Shown here: positions 19,353 to 30,101 of the stretch, one piece after another
Numbering within the stretch: the first letter of the stretch is position 1
Layout: each line of letters begins with the position of its first letter
Assembly: GCA_020718785.1 (NCBI GenBank)
Contig: DYRK01000004.1
Coordinates: forward strand, 1-31,362
Length of the DNA stretch: 31,362 bases
Direction: 5' to 3'
Origin: Desulfatirhabdium butyrativorans
GTDB lineage: Bacteria > Desulfobacterota > Desulfobacteria > Desulfobacterales > DYRK01
Position numbers and translations under genes: made by a program
Notes under the pieces: model-generated
Seen by the model: the letters and a program-made list of their open reading frames with translations, nothing else
The model's database searches: none
What the model was told of the DNA's origin: nothing

Positions 19353-21617
19353 TCAGTTGCCCTCTTTCAGCACAATATCTTTCCTCCGCAGGACATCTTC
19401 AAGCTCTCTTGCCGGCATGGGACGTCCGAAATAATATCCCTGCATCATGCGGCACCCCTGACGGCTTAAAAAATCCTGCTGATCTTTGTTTTCGACTCCT
19501 TCGGCAACGGTCTCAATACTCAGATTCCGAGCCATGGAGATAATGGTCTTGATAATCTCACGGTCGTCGCGGTTAGTTGCAGATTCGGCTATGAAAGACC
19601 GGTCTATCTTCAGGGTGTCAATCGGAAAACGTTTCATGTAGCTCAGAGAGGAATATCCCGTGCCGAAATCGTCAATGGAAAAGCGTATTCCTTTTGAGCG
19701 GAGCCGGTTCATTTTTGCAATGGCTGCTTCCGGGTCCTCCATGATGCCGCTCTCGGTCACTTCCAATTTCAGGTAATTCGGAGACAGACCGGTTTCATCG
19801 AGAATCCGCTCGATTGTCTCTGACAGATTTTTTTCTCTGAACTGACGGGTTGAGAGATTCACAGCCACATAAAGCCCTTTATAACCCATATCATGCCATT
19901 TTTTAGCCTGCTTGCAGGCTGTCCGGAGGACCCATTCTCCGATTGGTACGATAATTCCTGTCTCCTCTGCCAGATGGATAAATTTATCGGGATTGACTAA
20001 TCCCATCAGGGGATGCTGCCAGCGCAGCAATGCCTCAGCCCCGACAATCTGTTGCACATCGCCCACCAGCGGCTGATAGTAAACAATAAACTGTCTGCGT
20101 TCCAGAGCAGTACGCAGATTGTTTCCCATATTCATCCGCTCGATGGCTTTGATGTTCATCTCCTCTGTGAAGAAGCGGTATCCGTCCCCTTCTTCTTTGG
20201 CCACATACATTGCCATATCCGCATTTTTGACAAGAACTTCGACTGTTTTGCCGTCATCGGGATAAACACTGATGCCTATGCTCGCTGTTGTAAAGACTTC
20301 GGTCTCTTTGATCGCCCAGGGAAGAGAAACAGCCTTGCGGATTTTTGAAACTACCTTGGCAATATCAATATCGTTGAGGAGGTTGTTCAGGATAATCGTA
20401 AACTCGTCTCCCCCCAGTCTGAAGACATGATCGCTTTTCCTCAGACAGTTCGAAAGCCGGTCTGCCATCCCTTTCAGCAGTTCGTCTCCGGCATCGTGTC
20501 CCAATGTATCATTTACATATTTGAATCTGTCCAAATCCATAAACAGCAATGCCCATTTGGAATCTCCGATACGCCGCAGGGACTGGTTCAGTTTTTCTTC
20601 CAGACATCTGTAAAAAGATTTGCGGTTGGGAAGCCCTGTAAGAACGTCATGATATGCAATGAATGCAATTTCTTCTTCTACCCGTTTCCTCTCCGATATA
20701 TCCTGAAAGGTCAGAACACTTCCCATAGGCTCACCTTGACTGTCATAAAAAAATGAACCGCTGATGCTCACATCCACCTTATGCCCTTCTTTGTTCAGGC
20801 GATAAGTCTCAATTCCGGAAAAAGGCTCGCAATATTTGAGGCTGGCGATGATTGTTTTTGTCTCAGGCAGTTGTTCTGTGGGCATGAATTCGATCTGCCG
20901 CCCCAGATTTTCCGCCAGCGTCCACCCGAATACACGGGTAAATGCCGGGTTGAGATATGTGACTTTTCCGTCCATATCGCAGACCGCTACCGGGTCAGGT
21001 GCAGCTTCCAGTACAATCCGATGTTTTTCCTCACTTTCACGCAAAGCCGATTCGGTCTGCTTACGCACCTCTATTTCACGTTTCAGATCATCATTGGCTT
21101 CTATCAGCTGCAGTTCCAATTTGTCCTGATAATTCCTCAGGACATCTTCGGTCTCGCGCTCGTCGGCAAATCTGGCTATCCGCTCGGCAACAGCATGATT
21201 CAGACGGCTTCCGTTGCAGTGAAGAATATCTTCGTTTTCTTCTGTGAAAGCAATTTCCACTTTGCCGACAACAGCAGCCTCTATGACTATATCGGCAGAC
21301 TGTCTTCGGGCGGTTTCCGAAAAATTCTGTGTCTTATATTCTTTTTCCTTTAAGATAATCCGCGCACAGACTTTGTCCGAATGCTGCCATGCACGGGGAA
21401 TCAGATTCACTGTTTCCTGAAATATCTCTTGTTCGGGAAGGTATTTATGACTCAGAAGATCGGATATACGGCACAGACAATTCAGAATCCTGACCCGGCT
21501 GCCGAGTTTGCGGATTCTCCGGCGCAGCATCCCGCTTGTTTTCATCTGCTCGGAGAACTGCTGCTCCAATTCTCTGACCCTGTTCTCTAATTCTTCATAT
21601 AGCGGCTTTAGGGCCAT
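19353..21617 (-). CDS. PAS-GGDEF-EAL diguanylate cyclase/phosphodiesterase
   Basis: HDVLTGLPNR, MDLDRFK, I-site RKSD, GGDEF, EALLRW, DDFGTGYSSL and a PAS domain. Start set at ATG 21617, behind GAGGGAG. Confidence 0.95.
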   Translation of the reverse strand: MALKPLYEELENRVRELEQQFSEQMKTSGMLRRRIRKLGSRVRILNCLCRISDLLSHKYLPEQEIFQETVNLIPRAWQHSDKVCARIILKEKEYKTQNFSETARRQSADIVIEAAVVGKVEIAFTEENEDILHCNGSRLNHAVAERIARFADERETEDVLRNYQDKLELQLIEANDDLKREIEVRKQTESALRESEEKHRIVLEAAPDPVAVCDMDGKVTYLNPAFTRVFGWTLAENLGRQIEFMPTEQLPETKTIIASLKYCEPFSGIETYRLNKEGHKVDVSISGSFFYDSQGEPMGSVLTFQDISERKRVEEEIAFIAYHDVLTGLPNRKSFYRCLEEKLNQSLRRIGDSKWALLFMDLDRFKYVNDTLGHDAGDELLKGMADRLSNCLRKSDHVFRLGGDEFTIILNNLLNDIDIAKVVSKIRKAVSLPWAIKETEVFTTASIGISVYPDDGKTVEVLVKNADMAMYVAKEEGDGYRFFTEEMNIKAIERMNMGNNLRTALERRQFIVYYQPLVGDVQQIVGAEALLRWQHPLMGLVNPDKFIHLAEETGIIVPIGEWVLRTACKQAKKWHDMGYKGLYVAVNLSTRQFREKNLSETIERILDETGLSPNYLKLEVTESGIMEDPEAAIAKMNRLRSKGIRFSIDDFGTGYSSLSYMKRFPIDTLKIDRSFIAESATNRDDREIIKTIISMARNLSIETVAEGVENKDQQDFLSRQGCRMMQGYYFGRPMPARELEDVLRRKDIVLKEGN

Positions 21618-21670
21618 TCTCACTCCCTCTCACTCTGACATGACCATCGGCAGATCAACATACACGGCAT

Positions 21671-24412
21671 TCATAATATTTCACATTTCAAGCCCAACTG
21701 TTTTGCGGATTCCTGCATGGCTTTTACTCTGTTATCATCCGGCGTGAGAGGGCTGGAAGAACCGGCTTCGAATTCGAATCGGATAGACAATTTCTGCTTT
21801 TTCAGATTCATCTGGTTTGAAGGATAAATAAAACTGCTGAAAATCTGATTCCAGTTCTCTAACGGCACGTCCCCGCTGATGTCCATTCGGCTGACGATAT
21901 TTCCCTCTTTTACTTCCGCAGGCTTCGGCTCGGTGACTGTCGGTTGAAAAAAAGGTGGTTTGACGACATCAGGTTTTTCAGGTTGTGCAGCAGGTTCAGG
22001 TTCAAACGGCGGAATAATCCATACACCGTCATCCTGCCAGTCTATAGAAGAAGGAATGTTTTTGCAATATTTTTTGTTTAACGAATTTATCGCCGTTCCT
22101 ATTCCGATTCCTATTCTGCCATCCTGCGCTGCCTTGCTGACAGCATCAGTCACAACTTTCACGTTCGGAATCATGGGCTTGTCGGTAAATCTCAGAAACC
22201 AGTCTGCCGCATCTTTGACCCGGTCTCCGCCTTCTTTGGGAATCAGCCCGCATTCTTCAAAAGTGGCGATCCCGATTTTCTTTTGTATCCACTCCTCATT
22301 TACAACACTTTTCCATACGGCTTCAAGAAAAAGTTTCAGTCCGGTTTTGGGTTCGGACAGTGACAGGGAATGAACCGTGTCTTTTTCAACTCTTGCAACA
22401 ACCGTGTATGCTGTGGAACAGGTATCTTCAAAAAATTTTTGGGTATTTTCCGATTTGCTTTTCAGTTCGGCTTTCTGCTCCGAATCCAACTGCGAATTGT
22501 AATCGTTCAGAATGCTTTCGATCACGGTTTTGTCCCGATACGCATTTTGCAGATTTCTCGCCCCGTTTTCGCTTGCGGATAAAAAAAGAAGCGTATTCCG
22601 ATACAGTCTTTCCTTTGTTCCGCAATATTTCGACAGTTGAAGAATGAGGTCCTGCGCCGGATTTTTCGCATGGTTTTCAATCCATTGAACAGAAGGGGGC
22701 AGAATAACCAGCGTCAGAGATTTCTGCTCTGCCAAATCCGTTCCGGGATTGACCAATATTTTGTGAAAAAATTCCTGTTTCAGTCCGCTGACATGGCTTC
22801 GCAATTCTTCGGCGATTTTGTTCAGAAAATTATTTTCACCCAAAGTTACGGAATACTGATGAATCAGCTTGTTGATTGTCGGCTTTATGTTAAACCAGAA
22901 TCTTTTCTCCTGTCCGCCGGCGGTGTGAAGGTAAAACGCGTTTTCCTCCAATTGAATCAATGCGCCGTCAATCATTCCCCAGTTCAGATGCGGCTGGGAA
23001 CAGGCTGATTTTATTTCTTTGATATTCAGCCCGGCACGTTCGGCTTTTGAACCGAAACTGTTCAGCAAAATCGCAGAAGCAATGCCTTCGGTGATTCTTT
23101 CGCTTTCATAATCTCCGCCTTTCCGTTTGTCAGCCTGAACCGCATTGGAGTTGTCTCCGCTGATATCCGCAGCAACGACCGACTTATAAGCATCTCCCCA
23201 TAAGCGGCTTAATGTGCCGCCCCAGGCGTCTGATGACCAGGGAATATGGTTCGGCTGGATTAAGGCGCATTTCTGAGAATTGGCATTTTTTCTATGCCAT
23301 TGATCGGACACCAGAGTTGCAAGCAGTCTCAAAACCCCTCTGGTTCTTTGAAATGAAGAATGGCTTCCCCAGCGATGATAAAGGGCTTCTATCAGTTCCG
23401 GATGAAAAGGATAAGAGCGTTCAATCAGGGTTTTATATGCCGGTTTTAAAACTTCGGAAGGAACATCGGAGGAATGTTCTTTATACATCTGATAATAGGC
23501 TTTGGCTGCGCTTTCTTTTTCCGTTCCCACGGAATCGAACAGTCTTTTTCGGATGACCTCATAAATTTCATCATCCTGCACGGGTTTGACATCAACGGCT
23601 TCTCTGAAATAGCGGGTTTCCAAAGCATCCAGCACCGATTGCCCCAAAGCGTCTCCGCCGACTTCGATATGACTTGCCGGTAATGTTGCCGCCATCATGG
23701 CTTTCGGTGTTTTTGCCACGGCTCCGTTCAACTGCTGAATAAACGATATGGTCTGGTCTGCCAAAGTGGTTTTTTCAATCTTTATTCCCGAAGCCGCAAC
23801 GCAATAATCCGCCAATTCATCTGCCAAAATCAGGCATGGTGAGGCTTTGGCTAAAATCGTTTCAAACAGTCCTTGGGGAAAAACCCGGGTTTTATCATTT
23901 TCTTCAATGATTGAATACAGTTCTTTCCCGCCTAATTGATAGGCAATTTCTCCCCACATCGTTTTCAGATGCGTGCCGTCCGGGAGTTTTCTTCCCTGCG
24001 CTGCATCACAGGTCTTATTCGTAAATACTGCCACATTGACTTTTGCCGGTCTTATTTCGGTCAGATCAATATCCAATGTTGTAAGCAATTCTTCGATATT
24101 CCGGCTTTTTGCAAGATGATACAAGGCTGACAGCAAATGCGTTTTCCCGCCGCCGAAAGAGGTCTGAAGCCCGAGTATTCTGTCAGAAGATTCCGAATTT
24201 CCGTACAATACTTTTGCCGCTTTTGTGAGTACGGATTTCAAGCCTTCGGTAAAATAGGTCTTTTTGAAAAACGCTTCAGAATCCGAATACATTTCAGGCG
24301 CATTTCCGCTAATCACTCCCCACAGATCAATGGCAAATGAAGATTCGTCAAGATTGCCTTTTTTAATATCCTCATGCGGCGTACAAACCGAATACCAAGA
24401 TTTCAGTTCCAT
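21671..24412 (-). CDS. DUF499-family AAA+ ATPase
   Basis: Walker A QTSFGGGKTH, Walker B LILADEL, PHEDI N-terminus, YPFHPEL and FQRTRGVLRLL motifs. RBS AAGGAG. Confidence 0.9.
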   Translation of the reverse strand: MELKSWYSVCTPHEDIKKGNLDESSFAIDLWGVISGNAPEMYSDSEAFFKKTYFTEGLKSVLTKAAKVLYGNSESSDRILGLQTSFGGGKTHLLSALYHLAKSRNIEELLTTLDIDLTEIRPAKVNVAVFTNKTCDAAQGRKLPDGTHLKTMWGEIAYQLGGKELYSIIEENDKTRVFPQGLFETILAKASPCLILADELADYCVAASGIKIEKTTLADQTISFIQQLNGAVAKTPKAMMAATLPASHIEVGGDALGQSVLDALETRYFREAVDVKPVQDDEIYEVIRKRLFDSVGTEKESAAKAYYQMYKEHSSDVPSEVLKPAYKTLIERSYPFHPELIEALYHRWGSHSSFQRTRGVLRLLATLVSDQWHRKNANSQKCALIQPNHIPWSSDAWGGTLSRLWGDAYKSVVAADISGDNSNAVQADKRKGGDYESERITEGIASAILLNSFGSKAERAGLNIKEIKSACSQPHLNWGMIDGALIQLEENAFYLHTAGGQEKRFWFNIKPTINKLIHQYSVTLGENNFLNKIAEELRSHVSGLKQEFFHKILVNPGTDLAEQKSLTLVILPPSVQWIENHAKNPAQDLILQLSKYCGTKERLYRNTLLFLSASENGARNLQNAYRDKTVIESILNDYNSQLDSEQKAELKSKSENTQKFFEDTCSTAYTVVARVEKDTVHSLSLSEPKTGLKLFLEAVWKSVVNEEWIQKKIGIATFEECGLIPKEGGDRVKDAADWFLRFTDKPMIPNVKVVTDAVSKAAQDGRIGIGIGTAINSLNKKYCKNIPSSIDWQDDGVWIIPPFEPEPAAQPEKPDVVKPPFFQPTVTEPKPAEVKEGNIVSRMDISGDVPLENWNQIFSSFIYPSNQMNLKKQKLSIRFEFEAGSSSPLTPDDNRVKAMQESAKQLGLKCEIL

Positions 24413-24427
24413 TTTAATCTGCTCCTT

Positions 24428-24595
24428 TCAGAGAGTTTCATCAAATCGGATCATGTCCGATGATTTTTCCCGAACCGTTTTTATCAGAATTACTTCTCCT
24501 CTGATTTCACTCATATATTCATCAGTGTTTTTTTTGTCTTTAAATTTTCCCTGCCATCTTTTTTTAATTTGGTATTTTGAAGTAACTCTGGACAT
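24428..24595 (-). pseudogene. 55-codon AbrB/MazE (VapB-like) antitoxin relic, not in the ORF track
   Basis: Hand translation gives MSRVTSKYQI-KKRWQGKFKDKKNTDEYMSEIRGE-VILIKTVREKSSDMIRFDETL*, with AGGAG upstream. It has the AbrB N-terminal motif and the typical C-terminal TDEYMxEIRGE, but the central domain is missing. Confidence 0.6.
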
Positions 24596-24745: not shown

Positions 24746-24889
24746 GGGTCACAATTTGCGCTTTTCAAATTTTCTGTAAAACGCCCAGGCTTAAAACAGA
24801 TGCAAATCGTTTTATCGGCAAAACGGTTTGCGTCTGTTTTAAGCAGCGGCGTTTTACAAAAGCGCAGATTATACCGGTGGGCAGTATAT
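24746..24889. mobile_element. MITE-like element, second copy
   Basis: Colinear with 11363-11516, including the aagcgcag(a/t)ttata(c/a)cggtgggcagtatat right end. Its end supplies the last codons and stop of the yefM-like gene. Confidence 0.7.
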
Positions 24890-25153
24890 CGTCATATCTG
24901 AAAAAACTTCTTCTAGGGATTTTCCGACCGACCTGCCTGCATCATGGTCTTCAAATGACTGAACAAGTGCTTTCAAAGCTTTTTTGTCGTTTAACAGACG
25001 CATGGTTTCTTTATATGATTCCCATTCATCCATAGAGATTAAGACCATATTACCGTTTTTATGAGTCAGAATCACCTGATCATGATCACAAACGATCTGC
25101 CTGTGCAGCTCATATAAACGACTGCGTGCTTTTGAAACGCTCATCACTTCCAT
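24869..25153 (-). CDS. Phd/YefM-family antitoxin (orphan)
   Basis: MEVMSVSKARSRLYEL...VILTHKNGNMVLISMDEWESYKETMRLL. Start reassigned to ATG 25153. No toxin follows. Confidence 0.85.
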   Translation of the reverse strand: MEVMSVSKARSRLYELHRQIVCDHDQVILTHKNGNMVLISMDEWESYKETMRLLNDKKALKALVQSFEDHDAGRSVGKSLEEVFSDMTIYCPPV

Positions 25154-25196
25154 TTTATTTATCCGCCTTGTTTTTTCTCTCTTCAGAATCTGATAC

Positions 25197-25454
25197 CTAT
25201 CCTGCGTCTTCTTCCTCAACTTCGGCAGGGGTCATCGTCAGCAGCCCTATGATTTTGGAATTCGTTTCTTCGTCAAGAATTTTGTCGAGCTTATCCCACA
25301 GCATATTCTGACGTTCGAGCTGTGATTTGCCGAGAAAACTGTCCGAAATTATGAATCCTCCGATTCTTCCTTCCGGGGTTACTTCCAGTTCCGGTTTCGG
25401 ATTATCCAATCCCAGTTGCGAAATAATTTTTTCTAACTCTTCTTTGATGTCCAT
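25197..25454 (-). CDS. BolA/IbaG-like small acidic protein lacking the conserved histidines
   Basis: IISDSFLGKSQLERQNML fits the BolA S-x2-F-x-G-x5-R pattern, and LTMTPAE fits the C-terminal TPxE motif. Overlaps the upstream HEPN gene by 22 nt. Confidence 0.55.
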   Translation of the reverse strand: MDIKEELEKIISQLGLDNPKPELEVTPEGRIGGFIISDSFLGKSQLERQNMLWDKLDKILDEETNSKIIGLLTMTPAEVEEEDAG

Positions 25455-25882
25455 TGTCTTATTCCCATCCTGATGATTTCCAAGGCATTGCTGATGATAA
25501 TATCGGAATTCGGTTTCAGAATATCTCCTTTGATTCCTCTGTCCAGATTTAATCTTTTAAATTCAGATAATAGTCTCTCATAAGAAGCAAATCGGTAATT
25601 GTTTTTCCAACGCGACCATACCTCTCCCAACATTGCTGACAACTTTATCCTGTCACGCCGATGAATAAAATCAGCTATACCGCATTCTCTGAGAAGGCTT
25701 ACAAGATCATGCCTGCTTTCAAACTCAGCGTTTTTTCTTGTTTTGTATGCAATCAGCAGACATTCGACCGAGACACCCGCAAGATAAATCGCTGCTGCAT
25801 AGCGTTTCATATTATGCAGTCTTCTGGCATCGTCAATGCGTTCCTGTGATGCTTCAAGGTAATGCTCAGGTCTGAATCTCAT
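25433..25882 (-). CDS. HEPN domain protein
   Basis: ARRLHNMKRYAAAIYLAGVSVECLL, SRHDLVSL and WKNNYRF follow the HEPN helical pattern. Confidence 0.75.
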   Translation of the reverse strand: MRFRPEHYLEASQERIDDARRLHNMKRYAAAIYLAGVSVECLLIAYKTRKNAEFESRHDLVSLLRECGIADFIHRRDRIKLSAMLGEVWSRWKNNYRFASYERLLSEFKRLNLDRGIKGDILKPNSDIIISNALEIIRMGIRQWTSKKS

Positions 25883-25955
25883 AACTCGTAGCTCAACTCC
25901 CTCCGGTCACCTGATACTGTTTTTATCACATTCCCCCCGAAAGTCAAACAAAAAC

Positions 25956-25981
25956 AGCCCGCAGGCGTGAACCTACGGGCT
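25956..25981. repeat. GC-rich hairpin AGCCCGCAGG-CGTGAA-CCTACGGGCT (REP-like or terminator)
   Basis: 10-bp stem with one mismatch, just downstream of the MNT-HEPN pair. Confidence 0.55.
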
Positions 25982-26002
25982 ATATTGCAGGAAACGGAAT
26001 TT

Positions 26003-26389
26003 TCAGGCGATTAACCCTAACGACAACCGTGCAGCTTTACGGAATACACGGCATCGGTTACGGGCATCTTTTGCACAATCCTTATCTGCCGACTCTCCCG
26101 GGTAGCGATAACTTACGCTGAAATCCGTAAGAAATGCCAAATCCTGTCGGTATATTACCCAAAATGGTTCGACAGCAAGAGTCTGTTCAAGCAGTGCCAC
26201 CAAATCATGAATTTTTGCAAAAAATATTCCTGCCTCGCAAAGCCTGGCTTTCAGATACTTTTCAGCGCATTGCTGGGCATGAAAGCAGATTCCGTCATAA
26301 TTCGGATTTTTTCTGGCTCTTGATTCACGCTCAAGCATTGCGAAATCACCTTCCGCTTTCATTACCCATTCTTCAGTGACGGGCTTCAT
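26003..26389 (-). CDS. HEPN toxin of an MNT-HEPN pair
   Basis: WVMKAEGDF, CFHAQQCAEKYLKA, IHDLVAL and YRYPG. Start reassigned to ATG 26389, which overlaps the MNT 3' end. Confidence 0.9.
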   Translation of the reverse strand: MKPVTEEWVMKAEGDFAMLERESRARKNPNYDGICFHAQQCAEKYLKARLCEAGIFFAKIHDLVALLEQTLAVEPFWVIYRQDLAFLTDFSVSYRYPGESADKDCAKDARNRCRVFRKAARLSLGLIA

Positions 26390-26690
26390 AAAGAAGCCTT
26401 CCGTTTTGAAGTATGTCCTGCATAAAAAAATCGCCCATAGAAAGCCGATGCTCAACATTTTCAGGAGTCCGAACCAGAAGATCAAGCGGAAAATGAGGCA
26501 TGAGTTTCATCCGTATTTCAACAGATTTCTCTGTCGCTCTGCCTTTAAACGGCATGACAACCAGCAGATCAACATCCGAATCCGGCGTGGGGTTGCCGTT
26601 TGCGTAAGAACCGAACAGAATAATCCGATGCGGTTCAAACTCCTTTGCAATCCGAAAGCTGAAATCTTCAATCTGGCTCATGTTTATCAT
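26373..26690 (-). CDS. Minimal nucleotidyltransferase (MNT) antitoxin
   Basis: LFGSYANG...DSDVDLLV (GS + DxD), DLLVRTPE and GRLLYEA. Confidence 0.92.
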   Translation of the reverse strand: MINMSQIEDFSFRIAKEFEPHRIILFGSYANGNPTPDSDVDLLVVMPFKGRATEKSVEIRMKLMPHFPLDLLVRTPENVEHRLSMGDFFMQDILQNGRLLYEARH

Positions 26691-26698
26691 CATACACC

Positions 26699-29527
26699 TC
26701 ACATATTTTCGTCAAACAAGCTCTGCTCTCTGCCCGGTGTTTTCCCTTCCCTTCTTGTTTCTATCTTTAACGTTTCTTTTTCAGAAAGTAAAGCATTTAT
26801 GATTTTTCTGTCTTTTAATTCTCTCGGCAGGATTTCAAAGAGAGTTTGCGCCAATTTCCATAAGAGATCATTGTCAATTCTTTGATTTTGTTTTAAGAAT
26901 CTGACAAGATCGCTTCTTTTTTCCTGTTTCCACAAGCGCATGGCAATATGCAGTTGGTCAATCAGCGGCGCATCGGCATCTAATTTTTCATAAGAGGGAA
27001 GATGATCTTCTCTGTCTGCAAGCATGGCAAGCCGGGCTTTGTCTTCTTCTCTGACAATATAGTGATAGTGATCCGAAAATTCTTTGGCGTCTTCCTGTCC
27101 GCAGCCGATTTGGGCTACAAGACGAATATCATCCCATTTCTGCTCCGATATGCCGTAAATATTTGCCACAACAAAATAAAAACGGCTGTGAACATCTCCG
27201 CTGAATGCGCCGGCAATGGTTTTCAGGGCGATTTCTCTCACATCATTGAGCAAGTCCGCAATTGCAACCGGCTCGCCTTGTTTTTCAACATATTCATATT
27301 GTCCGACAACGCCGACAGCAGGACCGTAACAGGCGACAATCAAATCCGCTCCCCGAAAGCCGTATCCCCAGAATCGCTCGATGCTGTCTTTGACGACTTT
27401 TTCGATTTCTGTTCGGACTTTGTTGTAAGTCGTGGCTTTGCTGTAAACTCTGGGGCGGCATACGACTGTTACCGAAGAAGATAAGGCTGACATTGTGGCT
27501 TTCAAAGCAGTGGTCAGTTCCGTATCAATGGGATAAGTGGCGGTAACATTCAATCCGGCGTTGAAAATGGCATTGATTAAGGCTGTCCATGCGTGAGTGC
27601 TTTGATGAGCAAACATGACGGTTATCACGCCGTTTTCTTTACATAAACGCTTGGCTTCAATAAGGCTGTCAGTCAGTTTTTTCTCAAAATGCTGATTGGC
27701 TTTTTCTGCACTTCCCTTATGCCGATGTTTCAGAGCAGTTGCTTCTTCGGATTTCGGCGTCAAAGGTGTTGAAAATATCTCTGGAAAAACATCTCCCAGA
27801 CTTTTTTTGAGCCAGATATAAAAAAAATCTGATAAGTCAGCATAAGCAATAGAGTCAAAATAGGGCGGATCAGTTACCACAATATCAGCAGTTTGACTTG
27901 GATAATTTATTGATGAGGCATCGCCTAATAGAACTTGTATATTCTGTTTGTAATATCCATTAGTTGGGCTTTCGTGTTTTAGAAAATCAAGTATCCAATC
28001 TAATTGACTCATTGCGCCGCCACCAACTTCTGATATTGGAACAGTTTCAGGATAATCCCAAACCATAGGAATTGCGTGTCTTCCGAAAGCATGTTCAAAT
28101 GTTTCTCTCTTGGTATGTAATACTCCAATGTTTGAACACCTTGATACAACTCGACTAATAAATAAACCCGAATAGGCTAAGACAGCTTTTTTATCAATAT
28201 TACCTCCTATTTTCTCATTTTTCATTTCCTCAACAAAATATTGTATCGCTACAAGCTGTCTTTGATTGAATAAATCTCCCCATCTCGGCATACCATAATA
28301 AAGTGCTGGTGAAATAATACAAGTTCCGGGTATGCCAACAATATCCGAATAAACCAATTCATTTGGTTTTTCTATGGTTTTAGATAACTCTTCCGCCATT
28401 GCAAAAGCATCCGAATCAGTCTGCTCAAGCGGACGATAATCTTTTCCATCTTTTGTATCGGTTATCACGCAAACCATTCTCTCGCCCAAATTGCCGTTTA
28501 TTCCCGCAGTTCTCAAATCCGCAACCGGCGTGATTTCGGAACAAAAGGGGCAACGGACATTCCCCCGATTCAGCATGGTGCCTTGTTTCAGCGTTATCTC
28601 ATTTCCTTTGGCAATTCCGAATCGTATCTCATCGTTTCCGATAGTCATGGTCAGCGCAACCTGTTTCCCTTTTTTATCGCAGACCATCATGGATTTGAGC
28701 AGCGGCATCTGTTTTTTGCAGCTCGGATTACTGCAAGGAGCGGTTCTTGCCCAGAGATAGCCGACAACCGGATGTCCGTCTTTTCCCTGCGGATACAAAT
28801 GCCCGATTCGCTGTTTTACCCGTTCCAAGATATTTTTGGCGTGACGTTCCACATCGTAAGCCAGTTTATTCGCTATGATTTTCTTTCCGCCGATTTCATC
28901 TTCATCAGCGATTTCAAAGGGTTTTCCGTATTTGTAGGGAAATTCAAATGTGCAGCGTTGAATCAGATGCGCCACCGGATTATAATCATTGGCAATCACA
29001 TTGCATCCCAGCCGAACCGCTTCCAGCGGAATTGCCCCGCCGCCTGCAAAAGGATCAAGCACGGTCGGCGTATCTTCATAAGCCGCCTGAATCAGTTCCC
29101 TTGCAATCTTCAGAATATCGGGATTGATCGAAGATTCCCATTTGACGAGACAGGCATCATCCAGCATTTCTTTGGTCGCAGGAGACGTATCGCTTTTGCC
29201 TTCGTCAAAGGCGATTTTCTTTTCAGACCATTTCGCAATAAAGGCAAGCAGCCGATTTCTCAGCGTATCTTCCTGATGGCGGTAAGGCTTGTATTTCGGA
29301 TTGCTGCCGAGCAATTCCCGTACCTTGTCTTTGAATGCCTGCGGACATTGCGGATCATCCGGATCCGGCACTAAAGAAGCAAAGACAATGGCTCGACATG
29401 CAGGGAGCGGTCGTCTTGCCCACCAGAGATGAAGCGTTGAAATATGCCCGTGCCGCAGTGATTTATCCCTGACAGATTCAGCCGAGATTTCTTTGATGGG
29501 CAATGCGATTTCGATGAGTTTTTTCAT
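26699..29527 (-). CDS. DUF1156-domain adenine DNA methyltransferase (COG1743-like)
   Basis: LHLWWARRPL, DPFAGGGAIPLEA (SAM-binding), TDPPY (catalytic) and two CxxC-type Zn-ribbon motifs. Confidence 0.92.
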   Translation of the reverse strand: MKKLIEIALPIKEISAESVRDKSLRHGHISTLHLWWARRPLPACRAIVFASLVPDPDDPQCPQAFKDKVRELLGSNPKYKPYRHQEDTLRNRLLAFIAKWSEKKIAFDEGKSDTSPATKEMLDDACLVKWESSINPDILKIARELIQAAYEDTPTVLDPFAGGGAIPLEAVRLGCNVIANDYNPVAHLIQRCTFEFPYKYGKPFEIADEDEIGGKKIIANKLAYDVERHAKNILERVKQRIGHLYPQGKDGHPVVGYLWARTAPCSNPSCKKQMPLLKSMMVCDKKGKQVALTMTIGNDEIRFGIAKGNEITLKQGTMLNRGNVRCPFCSEITPVADLRTAGINGNLGERMVCVITDTKDGKDYRPLEQTDSDAFAMAEELSKTIEKPNELVYSDIVGIPGTCIISPALYYGMPRWGDLFNQRQLVAIQYFVEEMKNEKIGGNIDKKAVLAYSGLFISRVVSRCSNIGVLHTKRETFEHAFGRHAIPMVWDYPETVPISEVGGGAMSQLDWILDFLKHESPTNGYYKQNIQVLLGDASSINYPSQTADIVVTDPPYFDSIAYADLSDFFYIWLKKSLGDVFPEIFSTPLTPKSEEATALKHRHKGSAEKANQHFEKKLTDSLIEAKRLCKENGVITVMFAHQSTHAWTALINAIFNAGLNVTATYPIDTELTTALKATMSALSSSVTVVCRPRVYSKATTYNKVRTEIEKVVKDSIERFWGYGFRGADLIVACYGPAVGVVGQYEYVEKQGEPVAIADLLNDVREIALKTIAGAFSGDVHSRFYFVVANIYGISEQKWDDIRLVAQIGCGQEDAKEFSDHYHYIVREEDKARLAMLADREDHLPSYEKLDADAPLIDQLHIAMRLWKQEKRSDLVRFLKQNQRIDNDLLWKLAQTLFEILPRELKDRKIINALLSEKETLKIETRREGKTPGREQSLFDENM

Positions 29528-29530
29528 GTT

Positions 29531-29737
29531 TTAACGCCGATCTATGGCTGTATGAATATTTTGCTGTATAGAATCAATGAGATGAATCAGATTTTCTTTT
29601 GGTTCATTTCGATAAATTTTATCCTTCAGAATATCCAACATCTCACTAATCATTCGTTCCGCCCTTGATTCATAATAGGCTTTTGCGAATTGCGGGTCTT
29701 CCATCTGGTTCTGAAACAAGCGTTCATAATTTGTCAT
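29531..29737 (-). CDS. Putative antitoxin partner of the Gp49/RelE toxin, without an HTH domain
   Basis: ATGA overlap with the toxin. The N-terminus MTNYERLFQNQMEDPQFAKAY resembles XRE antitoxin leaders, but no helix-turn-helix follows. Confidence 0.55.
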   Translation of the reverse strand: MTNYERLFQNQMEDPQFAKAYYESRAERMISEMLDILKDKIYRNEPKENLIHLIDSIQQNIHTAIDRR

Positions 29738-30093
29738 ATCCCGGACTCCATCTTATAAAGATTCCTTAATTCTTTTGCTCTTTCTATCTCTTTTCTCGGC
29801 GTTTTCTGGGTTTTTTTGATAAATCCGTGTGTAATGATAATTTTTGCTCCCCTCTGATAAAAGTAAAGACTTCTTGAAATTTTCTCTGTCAACAGTGTCC
29901 GTAATTCAAAAATTCCGTCCCCAAGATGTTTTGACAGATTTTCTTTTATCGGGAGATGGTGCTCTTTCAGTTTTATGAAATAATTTATAGTTTCAAAGAC
30001 TTTTGCTCTCTCAGAAATTGAAAGATTCAGTACAAATTCCTCAAAAGGCTTTTTTCCATTTTTCAGTTCAACATATTCAACTGTATATTTCAT
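29734..30093 (-). CDS. RelE/ParE-superfamily Gp49-like (DUF891) toxin
   Basis: KHLGDGIFELR, RSLYFY and ITHGFIKKTQKTPRKEIERAK motifs. Confidence 0.9.
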   Translation of the reverse strand: MKYTVEYVELKNGKKPFEEFVLNLSISERAKVFETINYFIKLKEHHLPIKENLSKHLGDGIFELRTLLTEKISRSLYFYQRGAKIIITHGFIKKTQKTPRKEIERAKELRNLYKMESGI

Positions 30094-30101
30094 TATCAAT
30101 A

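What the first reader, a model, noticed from the sequence alone, without database searches (positions are those of the whole stretch)
25197..25882. HEPN toxin coupled to a His-less BolA/IbaG-like protein: candidate new toxin-antitoxin or defence pair
Seen: a HEPN gene overlaps by 22 nt an 85-aa acidic gene. That gene matches the BolA/IbaG signature (SDSFLGKSQLERQ...TPAE) but has no histidine at all. The pair appears to have its own expression signals (TTGACT at 25942-25947, a TG-extended -10-like element, GGAGGGAG), and it sits among TA modules in a defence operon. Known: class I HEPN toxins normally pair with an MNT, as in the adjacent 26003-26690 pair. BolA proteins are housekeeping Fe-S/morphology factors that use conserved His ligands. 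Inference: a BolA-like fold, or a catalytically dead MNT lacking GS and DxD, has been recruited as a HEPN antitoxin or sensor.
Basis: partly seen in the sequence, partly recalled or inferred. Interest (0 to 1): 0.8.

Follow-up and report, generated by a model that had tools for sequence, protein, structure and literature searches.

The report
HEPN toxin with BolA-fold partner
Two small overlapping genes, a basic HEPN (RNase-fold) protein and an acidic BolA-fold protein that has lost BolA's histidines, form a mobile cassette found together in many bacterial phyla. It most likely works as an undescribed toxin-antitoxin or defence pair, but its function has not been tested.

Summary
A 149-aa HEPN gene (25433-25882, minus strand) overlaps by 22 nt an 85-aa acidic, histidine-free gene (25197-25454).

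The 85-aa protein belongs to a distinct branch of the BolA superfamily:
- A family profile hits solved BolA proteins (E 1.3e-6).
- The AF2 model (pLDDT 92) matches BolA folds.
- All three BolA histidine positions are replaced family-wide.
- It is not a dead MNT.

Linkage to HEPN is very strong:
- All 28 HEPN loci that could be tested, from about seven phyla, carry the BolA-like gene immediately downstream.
- The overlap is usually conserved at 22, 25, 16 or 10 nt.
- Pairwise identities of the two proteins co-vary (Mantel r 0.91).
- Flanking genes are unrelated between loci.
- Distant BolA-like members pair with other HEPN families, including RiboL-PSP.
- About nine loci keep an intact BolA-like gene beside a broken or missing HEPN. 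The reverse was never seen.

Charges are complementary (+10 and -11). Complex prediction gives only weak support (0.49; best control 0.01).

The pair is embedded between HmaB and HmaC. It is related to the untested PADLOC candidate PDC-M28, whose partner carries a BolA-like N-terminal domain.

I found no paper describing this pair. This scan has already met such pairs in at least 13 other genomes. Toxicity, neutralisation and defence are all untested.

The parts
25433..25882 (-). HEPN gene (149 aa, pI 9.9, net +10), the predicted toxin or effector. Family-invariant residues: Y33 G36 E40 F54 H58 D59 L60 W89 R91 W92 N94 Y96 R97 K123 G140.
   Evidence: Pfam PF05168, 27.4 bits against cut-off 22. 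PADLOC PDC-M28A, E 5.7e-7, over residues 6-45. AF2 pLDDT 87.5. VIA Z 14.3 to AF0298 2hsb and 13.2-13.8 to sacsin HEPN, TT1696, ST0689 and TM0613. Invariant residues from alignment A3.
25197..25454 (-). BolA-fold partner gene (85 aa, pI 4.2, net -11, no His or Cys), the predicted antitoxin or adaptor. Near-invariant family residues: G33 F40 R48 Q49 W53 T75 E78.
   Evidence: Profile A2 against PDB: BolA 3tr3 E 1.3e-6, XC975 1.8e-6, YrbA 1.1e-4. AF2 pLDDT 92 with BolA topology. The 13 best Foldseek matches are all BolA-family proteins or BolA-like mitoribosomal chains, TM 0.47-0.67. Conservation.
25433..25454 (-). 22-nt overlap between the end of the HEPN gene and the start of the BolA-like gene (translational coupling).
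   Evidence: The same overlap class (22, 25, 16 or 10 nt) is present in 29 of 30 listed pair rows (25 distinct loci) from several phyla.
25954..25983 (-). Intrinsic-terminator-like hairpin (13 pairs, then TTTTTGTTTGA) between the MNT-HEPN pair and this pair.
25897..25904 (-). Shine-Dalgarno-like GGAGGGAG, 14 nt upstream of the HEPN ATG.
   Evidence: Read from the sequence. Its function is not tested.
26699..29527 (-). HmaB-type DUF1156 DNA adenine methylase (upstream core gene of the host defence system).
   Evidence: PADLOC HmaB, E 3e-126. Pfam DUF1156 and N6_N4_Mtase.
21671..24412 (-). HmaC-type DUF499 ATPase (downstream core gene of the host defence system).
   Evidence: PADLOC HmaC, E 7.7e-129. 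Pfam DUF499.
26003..26702 (-). Neighbouring classical MNT (26373-26702) plus HEPN (26003-26485) module.
   Evidence: Pfam NTP_transf_2 E 3.7e-11 and HEPN E 5e-18. NCBIfam MntA-like.
24869..25219 (-). Neighbouring Phd/YefM-type antitoxin gene with no recognisable toxin next to it.
   Evidence: Pfam PhdYeFM_antitox, E 2.3e-12.

Best explanation
This is a self-contained, horizontally mobile two-gene toxin-antitoxin-like cassette that has landed between the methylase and ATPase genes of an Hma defence system.

The first gene encodes a basic HEPN-T-like four-helix protein. It is the presumed RNA-targeting toxin. Its conserved polar cluster is R91, N94, R97, H58/D59 and K123, not a canonical Rx4-6H motif.

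The second gene is translationally coupled through a 22-nt overlap. It encodes an acidic BolA-fold protein that has lost BolA's iron-sulfur/glutaredoxin ligands.

I propose that the BolA-like protein binds the HEPN protein directly. Its conserved sheet/helix-2 face (G33, Q49, W53, strand 3) would dock on HEPN helix 1 and the C-terminal helix and keep the HEPN inactive. Loss of the partner, by turnover or on phage infection, would free the HEPN.

Shown:
- the folds;
- family membership at superfamily level;
- near-obligate linkage;
- co-variation of the two proteins;
- mobility between unrelated contexts;
- the asymmetry of decay;
- charge complementarity.

Inferred: toxicity, RNase activity, direct neutralisation, and any anti-phage role.
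For: - Folds: BolA and HEPN-T.
- Linkage from the HEPN side: 31 HEPN loci in species-representative genomes. Twenty-eight have the BolA-like gene immediately downstream. Of the other three, two end close to a contig end and one is a 44-residue relic.
- Linkage from the BolA side: divergent members sit after PF05168-like HEPNs, after a second 138-163-aa HEPN subfamily that includes a third copy in this genome, and after HEPN_RiboL-PSP proteins.
- The gene overlap is conserved.
- Mantel r = 0.91 between HEPN and partner identities, with 0 of 2000 permutations as high. Only 4 of 300 locus pairs share any flanking ORF.
- About nine loci have an intact partner with a frameshifted, truncated or absent HEPN. 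None shows the reverse.
- Net charge is +10 and -11 here; family medians are +9 and -7.
- Complex prediction gives weak support: median ipSAE 0.49 against a best control of 0.01. The partner's near-invariant residues lie in the predicted interface, but the third run disagreed.
- In a Nostoc plasmid, a PDC-M28A HEPN is coupled to a protein whose N-terminal ~90 residues match the BolA-like profile (hhalign E 2.2e-5). This suggests the domain is a general HEPN-docking module.
- Genes embedded within Hma systems are enriched for defence functions (bioRxiv 10.1101/2024.01.29.577857).
Against: - There is no experimental datum for any member.
- The HEPN lacks a canonical Rx4-6H motif: no H or D follows R97 within 4-6 residues. 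It might therefore be a non-catalytic RNA binder.
- The complex score counts only as 'weak support' by the tool's own calibration, and one of three runs gave a different pose.
- Gene order (toxin first) is the reverse of MNT-HEPN and of most type II modules.
- The decay asymmetry could partly reflect MAG assembly errors and the longer HEPN target. If breaks were random by length, all nine falling in HEPN would have a chance of about 0.02 to 0.04.
- The family is rare: about 0.25 to 2% of sampled genomes per phylum.
Confidence: 0.6

Rival explanations
1. Abortive-infection or defence module in which the BolA-like protein is mainly a sensor or adaptor rather than a passive antitoxin. It would hold the HEPN effector until a phage cue displaces or modifies it. 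This parallels the BolA-like N-terminal domain of the ParA/STAND NTPase in PDC-M28. This reading overlaps the best explanation and differs only in what triggers release.
For: - The pair is embedded between HmaB and HmaC, next to other TA modules.
- Hma-embedded genes often defend against phages.
- The HEPN N-terminus matches PDC-M28A in 35 of 37 family members.
- In the Nostoc plasmid the HEPN partner is a BolA-like + ParA + STAND protein next to hsdR.
Against: - An 85-aa domain has no evident sensing or NTPase module.
- No copy was found in viral contigs or with phage-related context.
- Many loci sit among housekeeping genes with unrelated flanks.
- No phage assay exists.
Confidence: 0.2
2. 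Non-toxic RNA-handling duo. The BolA-like (class II KH-like) protein would be a nucleic-acid-binding specificity subunit that guides, or works with, a non-catalytic or mildly active HEPN. It would not inhibit the HEPN.
For: - The BolA fold is KH-like, and ribosomal protein S3 KH domains appear among the weaker fold matches.
- One family member carries a C-terminal helix-hairpin-helix domain.
- The HEPN lacks the canonical Rx4-6H motif.
- Anantharaman et al. 2013 note non-catalytic RNA-binding HEPNs.
Against: - The strongly acidic partner (pI about 4.2 to 4.7) is ill suited to binding nucleic acid.
- The decay asymmetry (HEPN lost, partner kept) and the mobile, patchy distribution are typical of addiction modules.
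- A cooperative housekeeping pair would be expected to decay together.
Confidence: 0.12
3. The 85-aa protein is a degenerate minimal nucleotidyltransferase (dead MNT) that still pairs with HEPN.
For: Its position next to a HEPN gene and its small size. An intact MNT-HEPN pair lies next door.
Against: - The AF2 topology and the 13 best Foldseek matches are BolA-type.
- The profile hits BolA proteins at E 1e-6 and hits no nucleotidyltransferase.
- No Pfam NTP_transf hit.
- Gene order is the opposite of MNT-HEPN.
Confidence: 0.01
4. An ordinary housekeeping BolA/IbaG protein (Fe-S trafficking with glutaredoxin, or a morphology or stress regulator) that merely happens to lie next to a HEPN gene.
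For: - Superfamily homology to BolA.
- One source names a fragment 'IbaG/YrbA'.
Against: - All three BolA histidine positions (loop GHHF, helix RH, HAL) are replaced in nearly all of 109 family members.
- The canonical BolA genes picked up in these searches and examined sit next to a monothiol glutaredoxin and have no HEPN (L070, L075, L077). This family has a HEPN upstream and no conserved Grx.
- The distribution is patchy and mobile.
Confidence: 0.02

Closest known systems
MNT-HEPN toxin-antitoxin modules (classical PF01909 + PF05168 pairs; type VII MntA-HepT, e.g. PDB 5YEP, 7AE2)
   Same: A small HEPN-fold protein is the presumed toxin. The genes form a tight co-oriented two-gene cassette, often in defence islands. 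The HEPN fold matches HEPN-T structures (Z 13-14) and HepT-type toxins (Z about 9).
   Different: The partner has a BolA fold, not a pol-beta nucleotidyltransferase, so neutralisation by AMPylation is excluded. Gene order is reversed, with HEPN first. There is no canonical Rx4-6H motif.
PADLOC phage-defence candidate PDC-M28, and the HEPN (MAE_18760 family) + ParA/Soj ATPase dyad predicted by Anantharaman et al. 2013 (PMC3710099)
   Same: The first 40 residues of the HEPN match PDC-M28A (E 5.7e-7; 35 of 37 family members). In a Nostoc plasmid example the partner begins with a BolA-like domain that matches this family's profile (hhalign E 2.2e-5), and the genes overlap.
   Different: Here the partner is only the 85-aa BolA-like domain. 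The ParA/MinD-like (PDC-M28B) and STAND-like (PDC-M28C) NTPase modules are missing. PADLOC models do not detect the standalone partner. PDC-M28 itself is untested.
BolA/IbaG family (Pfam PF01722; PDB 3tr3, 1xs3, 1ny8, 2dhm, 4pui)
   Same: Same alpha1-beta1-beta2-alpha2-alpha-beta3-alpha3 fold. The F-x-G...R-x...T-P-x-E sequence frame is retained. Profile E is 1.3e-6 over the full length.
   Different: The loop His, the RH His (Q in 105 of 109 members) and the HAL His are all replaced. The protein is strongly acidic. It is linked to HEPN rather than to monothiol glutaredoxin. Its distribution is mobile and patchy.
Hma-embedded candidate defence genes (Payne et al., bioRxiv 10.1101/2024.01.29.577857), e.g. 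HEC-08, a HEPN-containing protein
   Same: The gene or genes are embedded between core genes of an Hma (methylase/ATPase) system. A HEPN domain is the likely effector.
   Different: HEC-08 is a single DUF3644-HEPN protein with zinc-ribbon domains and a canonical Rx4-6H motif. It has no BolA-like partner. The preprint does not mention BolA.

Membership tests
BolA superfamily (PF01722) | alpha1-beta1-beta2-(eta)-alpha2-(eta)-beta3-alpha3 class II KH-like fold | tested here: met
   AF2 pLDDT 92, elements H3-12 E20-25 E31-36 H45-59 H62-66 E68-74 H76-84. The 13 best Foldseek PDB matches are BolA-type, with probability 0.94-1.00.
BolA superfamily (PF01722) | Sequence match above Pfam's gathering score | tested here: not met
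   The window protein scores 14.7 bits against a cut-off of 25.7. Only 23 of 109 family members reach E <= 0.01. Homology shows only at profile level (E 1.3e-6 to 3tr3).
BolA superfamily (PF01722) | Conserved His (or Cys) residues: beta1-beta2 loop H/C, helix RH, and the C-terminal HAL histidine used with glutaredoxin for [2Fe-2S] binding (established knowledge of BolA-Grx complexes) | tested here: not met
   Alignment A4 with canonical BolAs. In A2, His occupies these columns in 0 to 5 of 109 sequences, and Q replaces the RH histidine in 105 of 109.
BolA superfamily (PF01722) | Genomic or functional partnership with monothiol glutaredoxin | tested here: not met
   The canonical BolAs examined (L070, L075, L077) are adjacent to Grx genes. 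The window gene and its family have HEPN upstream instead. L057 is a single exception, with a Grx gene downstream.
HEPN superfamily, HEPN-T group (PF05168) | Pfam match above the gathering score | tested here: met
   27.4 bits against 22, but over residues 6-69 only.
HEPN superfamily, HEPN-T group (PF05168) | All-alpha HEPN helical bundle | tested here: met
   AF2 pLDDT 87.5. VIA Z 14.3 (2hsb), 13.8 (3o10), 13.6 (1ufb), 13.2 (1wol, 1o3u), covering 113-126 residues. Foldseek probability 1.00.
HEPN superfamily, HEPN-T group (PF05168) | Rx4-6H catalytic motif (or R...D with a compensating His, as noted for HEPN-T in PMC3710099) | tested here: inconclusive
   R91 and R97 are invariant, but no H or D is conserved 4-6 residues after either. 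An invariant H58-D59 lies elsewhere. Table 1 of PMC3710099 allows an alternative His in HEPN-T. The spatial clustering of these residues could not be measured.
MNT-HEPN / type VII MntA-HepT TA | Partner is a pol-beta minimal nucleotidyltransferase (GS...DxD) encoded upstream of HEPN | tested here: not met
   The partner has a BolA fold, gives no NTase hit, and is encoded downstream.
Type II-like toxin-antitoxin module | Two small adjacent co-oriented genes that move together | tested here: met
   28 of 28 testable loci. The overlap is conserved. Mantel r 0.91. Flanks are unrelated.
Type II-like toxin-antitoxin module | Direct protein-protein neutralisation | tested here: inconclusive
   Complex prediction gave weak support: 0.63, 0.49 and 0.26 against controls of 0.00 to 0.01. 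Runs 1 and 2 shared 94% of contacts and run 3 shared 0%.
Type II-like toxin-antitoxin module | Toxin arrests growth and the antitoxin rescues it | not testable with these tools
   Only indirect evidence: about nine loci with a degraded HEPN and an intact partner, none the other way round.
PADLOC PDC-M28 | HEPN component PDC-M28A | tested here: inconclusive
   E 5.7e-7, but only profile positions 3-42 of 138 are matched. hhalign of A3 against the Nostoc M28A-type HEPN gives probability 96.5% over 40 columns.
PADLOC PDC-M28 | ParA/MinD-like PDC-M28B and STAND-like PDC-M28C NTPase components | tested here: not met
   No such gene is adjacent. The partner is 85 aa and matches no PADLOC model.

The most novel reading that the evidence does not exclude
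The His-less BolA fold is a general HEPN-docking and silencing module that defines a new antitoxin class. As a free acidic 85-aa protein it would neutralise at least three different HEPN toxin families (HEPN-T-like, a second 140-160-aa subfamily, and RiboL-PSP). As the N-terminal domain of ParA/STAND NTPases (PDC-M28) it would tether the HEPN effector to a sensor. This would be a housekeeping Fe-S-trafficking fold exapted for conflict systems across many bacterial phyla.
Probability: 0.45. Interest if true: 0.75.

Novelty: new variant of a known kind. Interest (0 to 1): 0.62.

Why it matters
HEPN toxins are central to TA systems, abortive infection and CRISPR ancillary nucleases. Their known silencers are nucleotidyltransferases (MNT/MntA), small proteins such as RnlB or Dmd, and cis-acting sensor domains.

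A BolA-fold antitoxin would be a new way to neutralise a HEPN. It would also be a new, non-Fe-S role for a fold known from BolA/glutaredoxin biology. It gives a concrete hypothesis for the unexplained N-terminal domain of the PDC-M28 candidate defence system.

The pair is small (about 690 bp), self-contained and easy to test in laboratory strains. It is also a further example of defence or TA cassettes nested inside Hma systems.

Tried and rejected
- Dead-MNT reading: rejected by fold and profile.
- Canonical BolA: rejected by ligand loss and context.
- The search for related loci with the broad BolA-like alignment A2 failed, because no stretch was conserved enough. I used the HEPN alignment instead.
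- The phylum-wide search with A2 in the window's own phylum mostly returned canonical BolA genes at 21-35 bits. Only the window's own genome held true members.
- A profile of the HEPN family against PDB sequences found no significant sequence match, so HEPN membership rests on Pfam and on fold.
- PADLOC does not detect the BolA-like family.
- No relative was found in IMG/VR viral contigs. Among plasmids there was only the Nostoc PDC-M28-type HEPN.
- Literature searches for HEPN with BolA, BolA-like with antitoxin, and PDC-M28 returned nothing relevant. The apparent hits were the author name 'Bolam'.
- Complex prediction gave 'weak support' only. I cite it with its control and do not treat it as proof.

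Full report
**Observation**

The minus strand carries a 149-aa ORF (25433-25882) and an 85-aa ORF (25197-25454). They share 22 nt.
- The first ORF passes Pfam HEPN PF05168 (27.4 bits, cut-off 22).
- The second gives only a sub-threshold BolA hit (E 0.039).
- The 85-aa protein has no His or Cys, net charge -11 and pI 4.2. The HEPN has net charge +10 and pI 9.9.

The neighbours, in order on the minus strand, are:
- an HmaB-type DUF1156 methylase (26699-29527);
- a classical MNT plus HEPN pair (26003-26702);
- this pair;
- a Phd/YefM antitoxin gene (24869-25219);
- an HmaC-type DUF499 ATPase (21671-24412).

No HmaA helicase is visible. The gene downstream of HmaC encodes a PAS-GGDEF-EAL protein, and the window is the whole contig.

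On expression signals:
- The promoter scan does not call that promoter.
- The scan does find a 13-bp-stem terminator-like hairpin at 25983-25954, directly after the upstream HEPN gene. This argues for a separate transcription unit.

**What the 85-aa protein is**

- Close homologues (64-96% identity) occur in Desulfonema and related Desulfobacterales.
- An exhaustive search finds 173 representatives at 50% identity, mostly 80-95 aa.
- Near-invariant residues are G33, F40, R48, Q49, W53, T75 and E78.
- A profile of 109 members matches solved BolA proteins over their full length: Coxiella BolA 3tr3 at E 1.3e-6, XC975 at 1.8e-6, E. coli BolA and YrbA at 1e-4 to 1e-5.
- The AF2 model (pLDDT 92) has the BolA order of secondary-structure elements.
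- The best 13 Foldseek PDB matches are BolA-family proteins or BolA-like mitoribosomal chains, with TM 0.47-0.67.
- I aligned the family with canonical BolA genes picked up in these searches. The loop GHHF, the helix RH and the HAL histidines are replaced by GR(I/V)GGF, RQ and (K/R)I(I/V)xL.
- Across the 109 members these columns hold His in 0 to 5 sequences, and Q replaces the RH histidine in 105.

It is therefore a distinct His-less branch of the BolA superfamily. It is neither a dead nucleotidyltransferase nor a housekeeping BolA.

**What the HEPN is**

- Its family is conserved at 42-90% identity in Desulfobacterota, Verrucomicrobiota, Planctomycetota, Sumerlaeota and other phyla.
- Invariant residues are Y33, G36, E40, F54, H58, D59, L60, W89, R91, W92, N94, Y96, R97, K123 and G140.
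- There is no canonical Rx4-6H motif.
- The AF2 model (pLDDT 87.5) aligns with HEPN-T structures: AF0298, sacsin HEPN, TT1696, ST0689 and TM0613 at Z 13.2-14.3. HepT-type toxins align at Z about 9.
- Anantharaman et al. (PMC3710099) note that HEPN-T proteins often replace the motif His and carry a conserved His elsewhere. Catalysis therefore remains possible but unproven.

**Linkage**

*From the HEPN side.* A scan of one genome per species found 31 loci in Desulfobacterota, Planctomycetota, Verrucomicrobiota, Myxococcota, Lentisphaerota, WPS-2, Fibrobacterota and a proteobacterial MAG.
- Twenty-eight have the BolA-like gene immediately downstream.
- Of the other three, two end close to a contig end (L043, L048). 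One is a 44-residue HEPN relic (L050).

*Gene overlap and mobility.*
- The overlap is conserved at 22, 25, 16 or 10 nt in 29 of 30 listed pair rows, which are 25 distinct loci.
- Pairwise identities of the two proteins correlate (Pearson 0.91, and 0 of 2000 Mantel permutations reach it).
- Only 4 of 300 locus pairs share any flanking ORF. The pair therefore moves as a unit between unrelated contexts.

*Contexts elsewhere.*
- In Desulfonema limicola the pair lies among TraG, TrbI and TraE genes.
- In another locus it lies next to a PIN-domain gene.

*Copies in the window's genome.*
- A second close copy lies on contig C813.
- A third, divergent pair on C289 has a different 143-aa HEPN.

*From the BolA side.* Distant members follow:
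- PF05168-like HEPNs;
- the second HEPN subfamily, in Planctomycetota and Verrucomicrobiota;
- HEPN_RiboL-PSP proteins.

Tandem-duplicated BolA-like proteins follow broken HEPN genes. The canonical BolA genes picked up in the Planctomycetota and Verrucomicrobiota searches and examined (L070, L075, L077) sit beside monothiol glutaredoxin and have no HEPN.

**Which gene is the toxin**

About nine loci keep an intact BolA-like gene beside a damaged or missing HEPN:
- frameshifted: L026 copy 1, L038, L040, L044, L045;
- nonsense-interrupted: L054;
- truncated: L053, L060;
- absent: L003/L004.

No locus has an intact HEPN with a damaged or missing partner. This asymmetry points to HEPN as the toxin and the BolA-like protein as its antidote. 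So do the basic/acidic charge pairing and the translational coupling. Assembly errors and the longer HEPN target weaken this argument.

**Binding**

The complex prediction gave weak support. Scores were 0.63, 0.49 and 0.26 (median 0.49) against a best control of 0.01. By the tool's calibration, 58 of 80 solved complexes and 2 of 110 mismatched pairs reached the pass mark. Passes at 0.60 or below are rated weak.
- In the best run the interface uses partner residues 24-34, 44-53 and 69-74. These include the near-invariant G33, Q49 and W53.
- On the HEPN side it uses helix 1 (6-24) and the C-terminal helix (127-145).
- Runs 1 and 2 agree on 94% of contacts. Run 3 does not agree.

**Relation to known systems**

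- The HEPN N-terminus matches the PADLOC candidate PDC-M28A (35 of 37 family members).
- On a Nostoc plasmid, a full-length PDC-M28A HEPN overlaps an 890-aa protein next to hsdR. That protein's first ~90 residues match the BolA-like profile (hhalign E 2.2e-5, probability 76%). The rest matches PDC-M28B (ParA-like) and PDC-M28C.
- This ties the pair to the HEPN + ParA/Soj dyad predicted as a TA in 2013. It suggests that the BolA-like domain is the HEPN-docking element, here reduced to a free protein.
- Payne et al. show that genes embedded in Hma systems are often defence genes. They do not mention BolA.
- No paper in the searchable library links HEPN with BolA.
- Notes of this scan record similar pairs in at least 13 other genomes. 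I used them as leads and tested the PDC-M28 link myself.

**Verdict**

This is a real, conserved, mobile HEPN + His-less BolA-fold cassette. It is most likely a toxin-antitoxin-type module with a new antitoxin fold. Function is untested, and novelty is at the level of a new variant of HEPN-based TA or defence systems.

Noticed in passing
G000 contig C813 (L019:1492-2246) and contig C289 (L022:1042-1743): The window's genome carries two more HEPN + BolA-like pairs. One is a close paralogue with the same 22-nt overlap. The other is divergent: a 143-aa HEPN of another subfamily followed by an 84-aa BolA-like gene after a 15-nt gap.
   Followed up: partly
L026:1577-3186: Desulfatirhabdium MAG contig with two tandem HEPN + BolA-like pairs. 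The first HEPN is frameshifted and both partners are intact.
   Followed up: partly
L057:69-1422: A RiboL-PSP-type HEPN + BolA-like pair is followed about 170 nt downstream by a glutaredoxin-family gene. It may be chance, but it recalls the canonical BolA-Grx partnership.
   Followed up: no
P0017 (147 aa), P0018/P0020 (about 180 aa), P0130 (127 aa): Variant architectures of the BolA-like family: a C-terminal helix-hairpin-helix fusion (P0017), tandem duplications (P0018, P0020), and a protein that joins the first ~28 HEPN residues directly to the BolA-like domain (P0130). P0130 is probably an internal HEPN deletion.
   Followed up: partly
window 24869-25219 (-) and 24428-24595 (-): A Phd/YefM-type antitoxin gene with no recognisable YoeB- or Doc-type toxin. 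The next small ORF (55 aa) has no family match.
   Followed up: no
window 19353-21623 (-) and the contig end at 31362: The Hma system appears incomplete in this contig. HmaB and HmaC are present, but no HmaA helicase is seen. Downstream of HmaC lies a PAS-GGDEF-EAL gene, and upstream of HmaB are further TA-like genes (one with an NsnC-like PADLOC hit at 29734-30099) up to the contig end.
   Followed up: partly
L001:1434-7870 (Desulfonema limicola chromosome): In D. limicola the pair sits inside a region with TraG/VirD4, TrbI and TraE homologues and an IS66 transposase. This is probably an integrative conjugative element.
   Followed up: no
L086:480-7086 (Nostoc sp. UHCC 0870 plasmid): A PDC-M28-type cassette lies next to a type I restriction hsdR gene. 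It comprises a HEPN and an 890-aa protein with a BolA-like domain, a ParA-like domain (KGGVGRS Walker A) and a second P-loop NTPase.
   Followed up: partly
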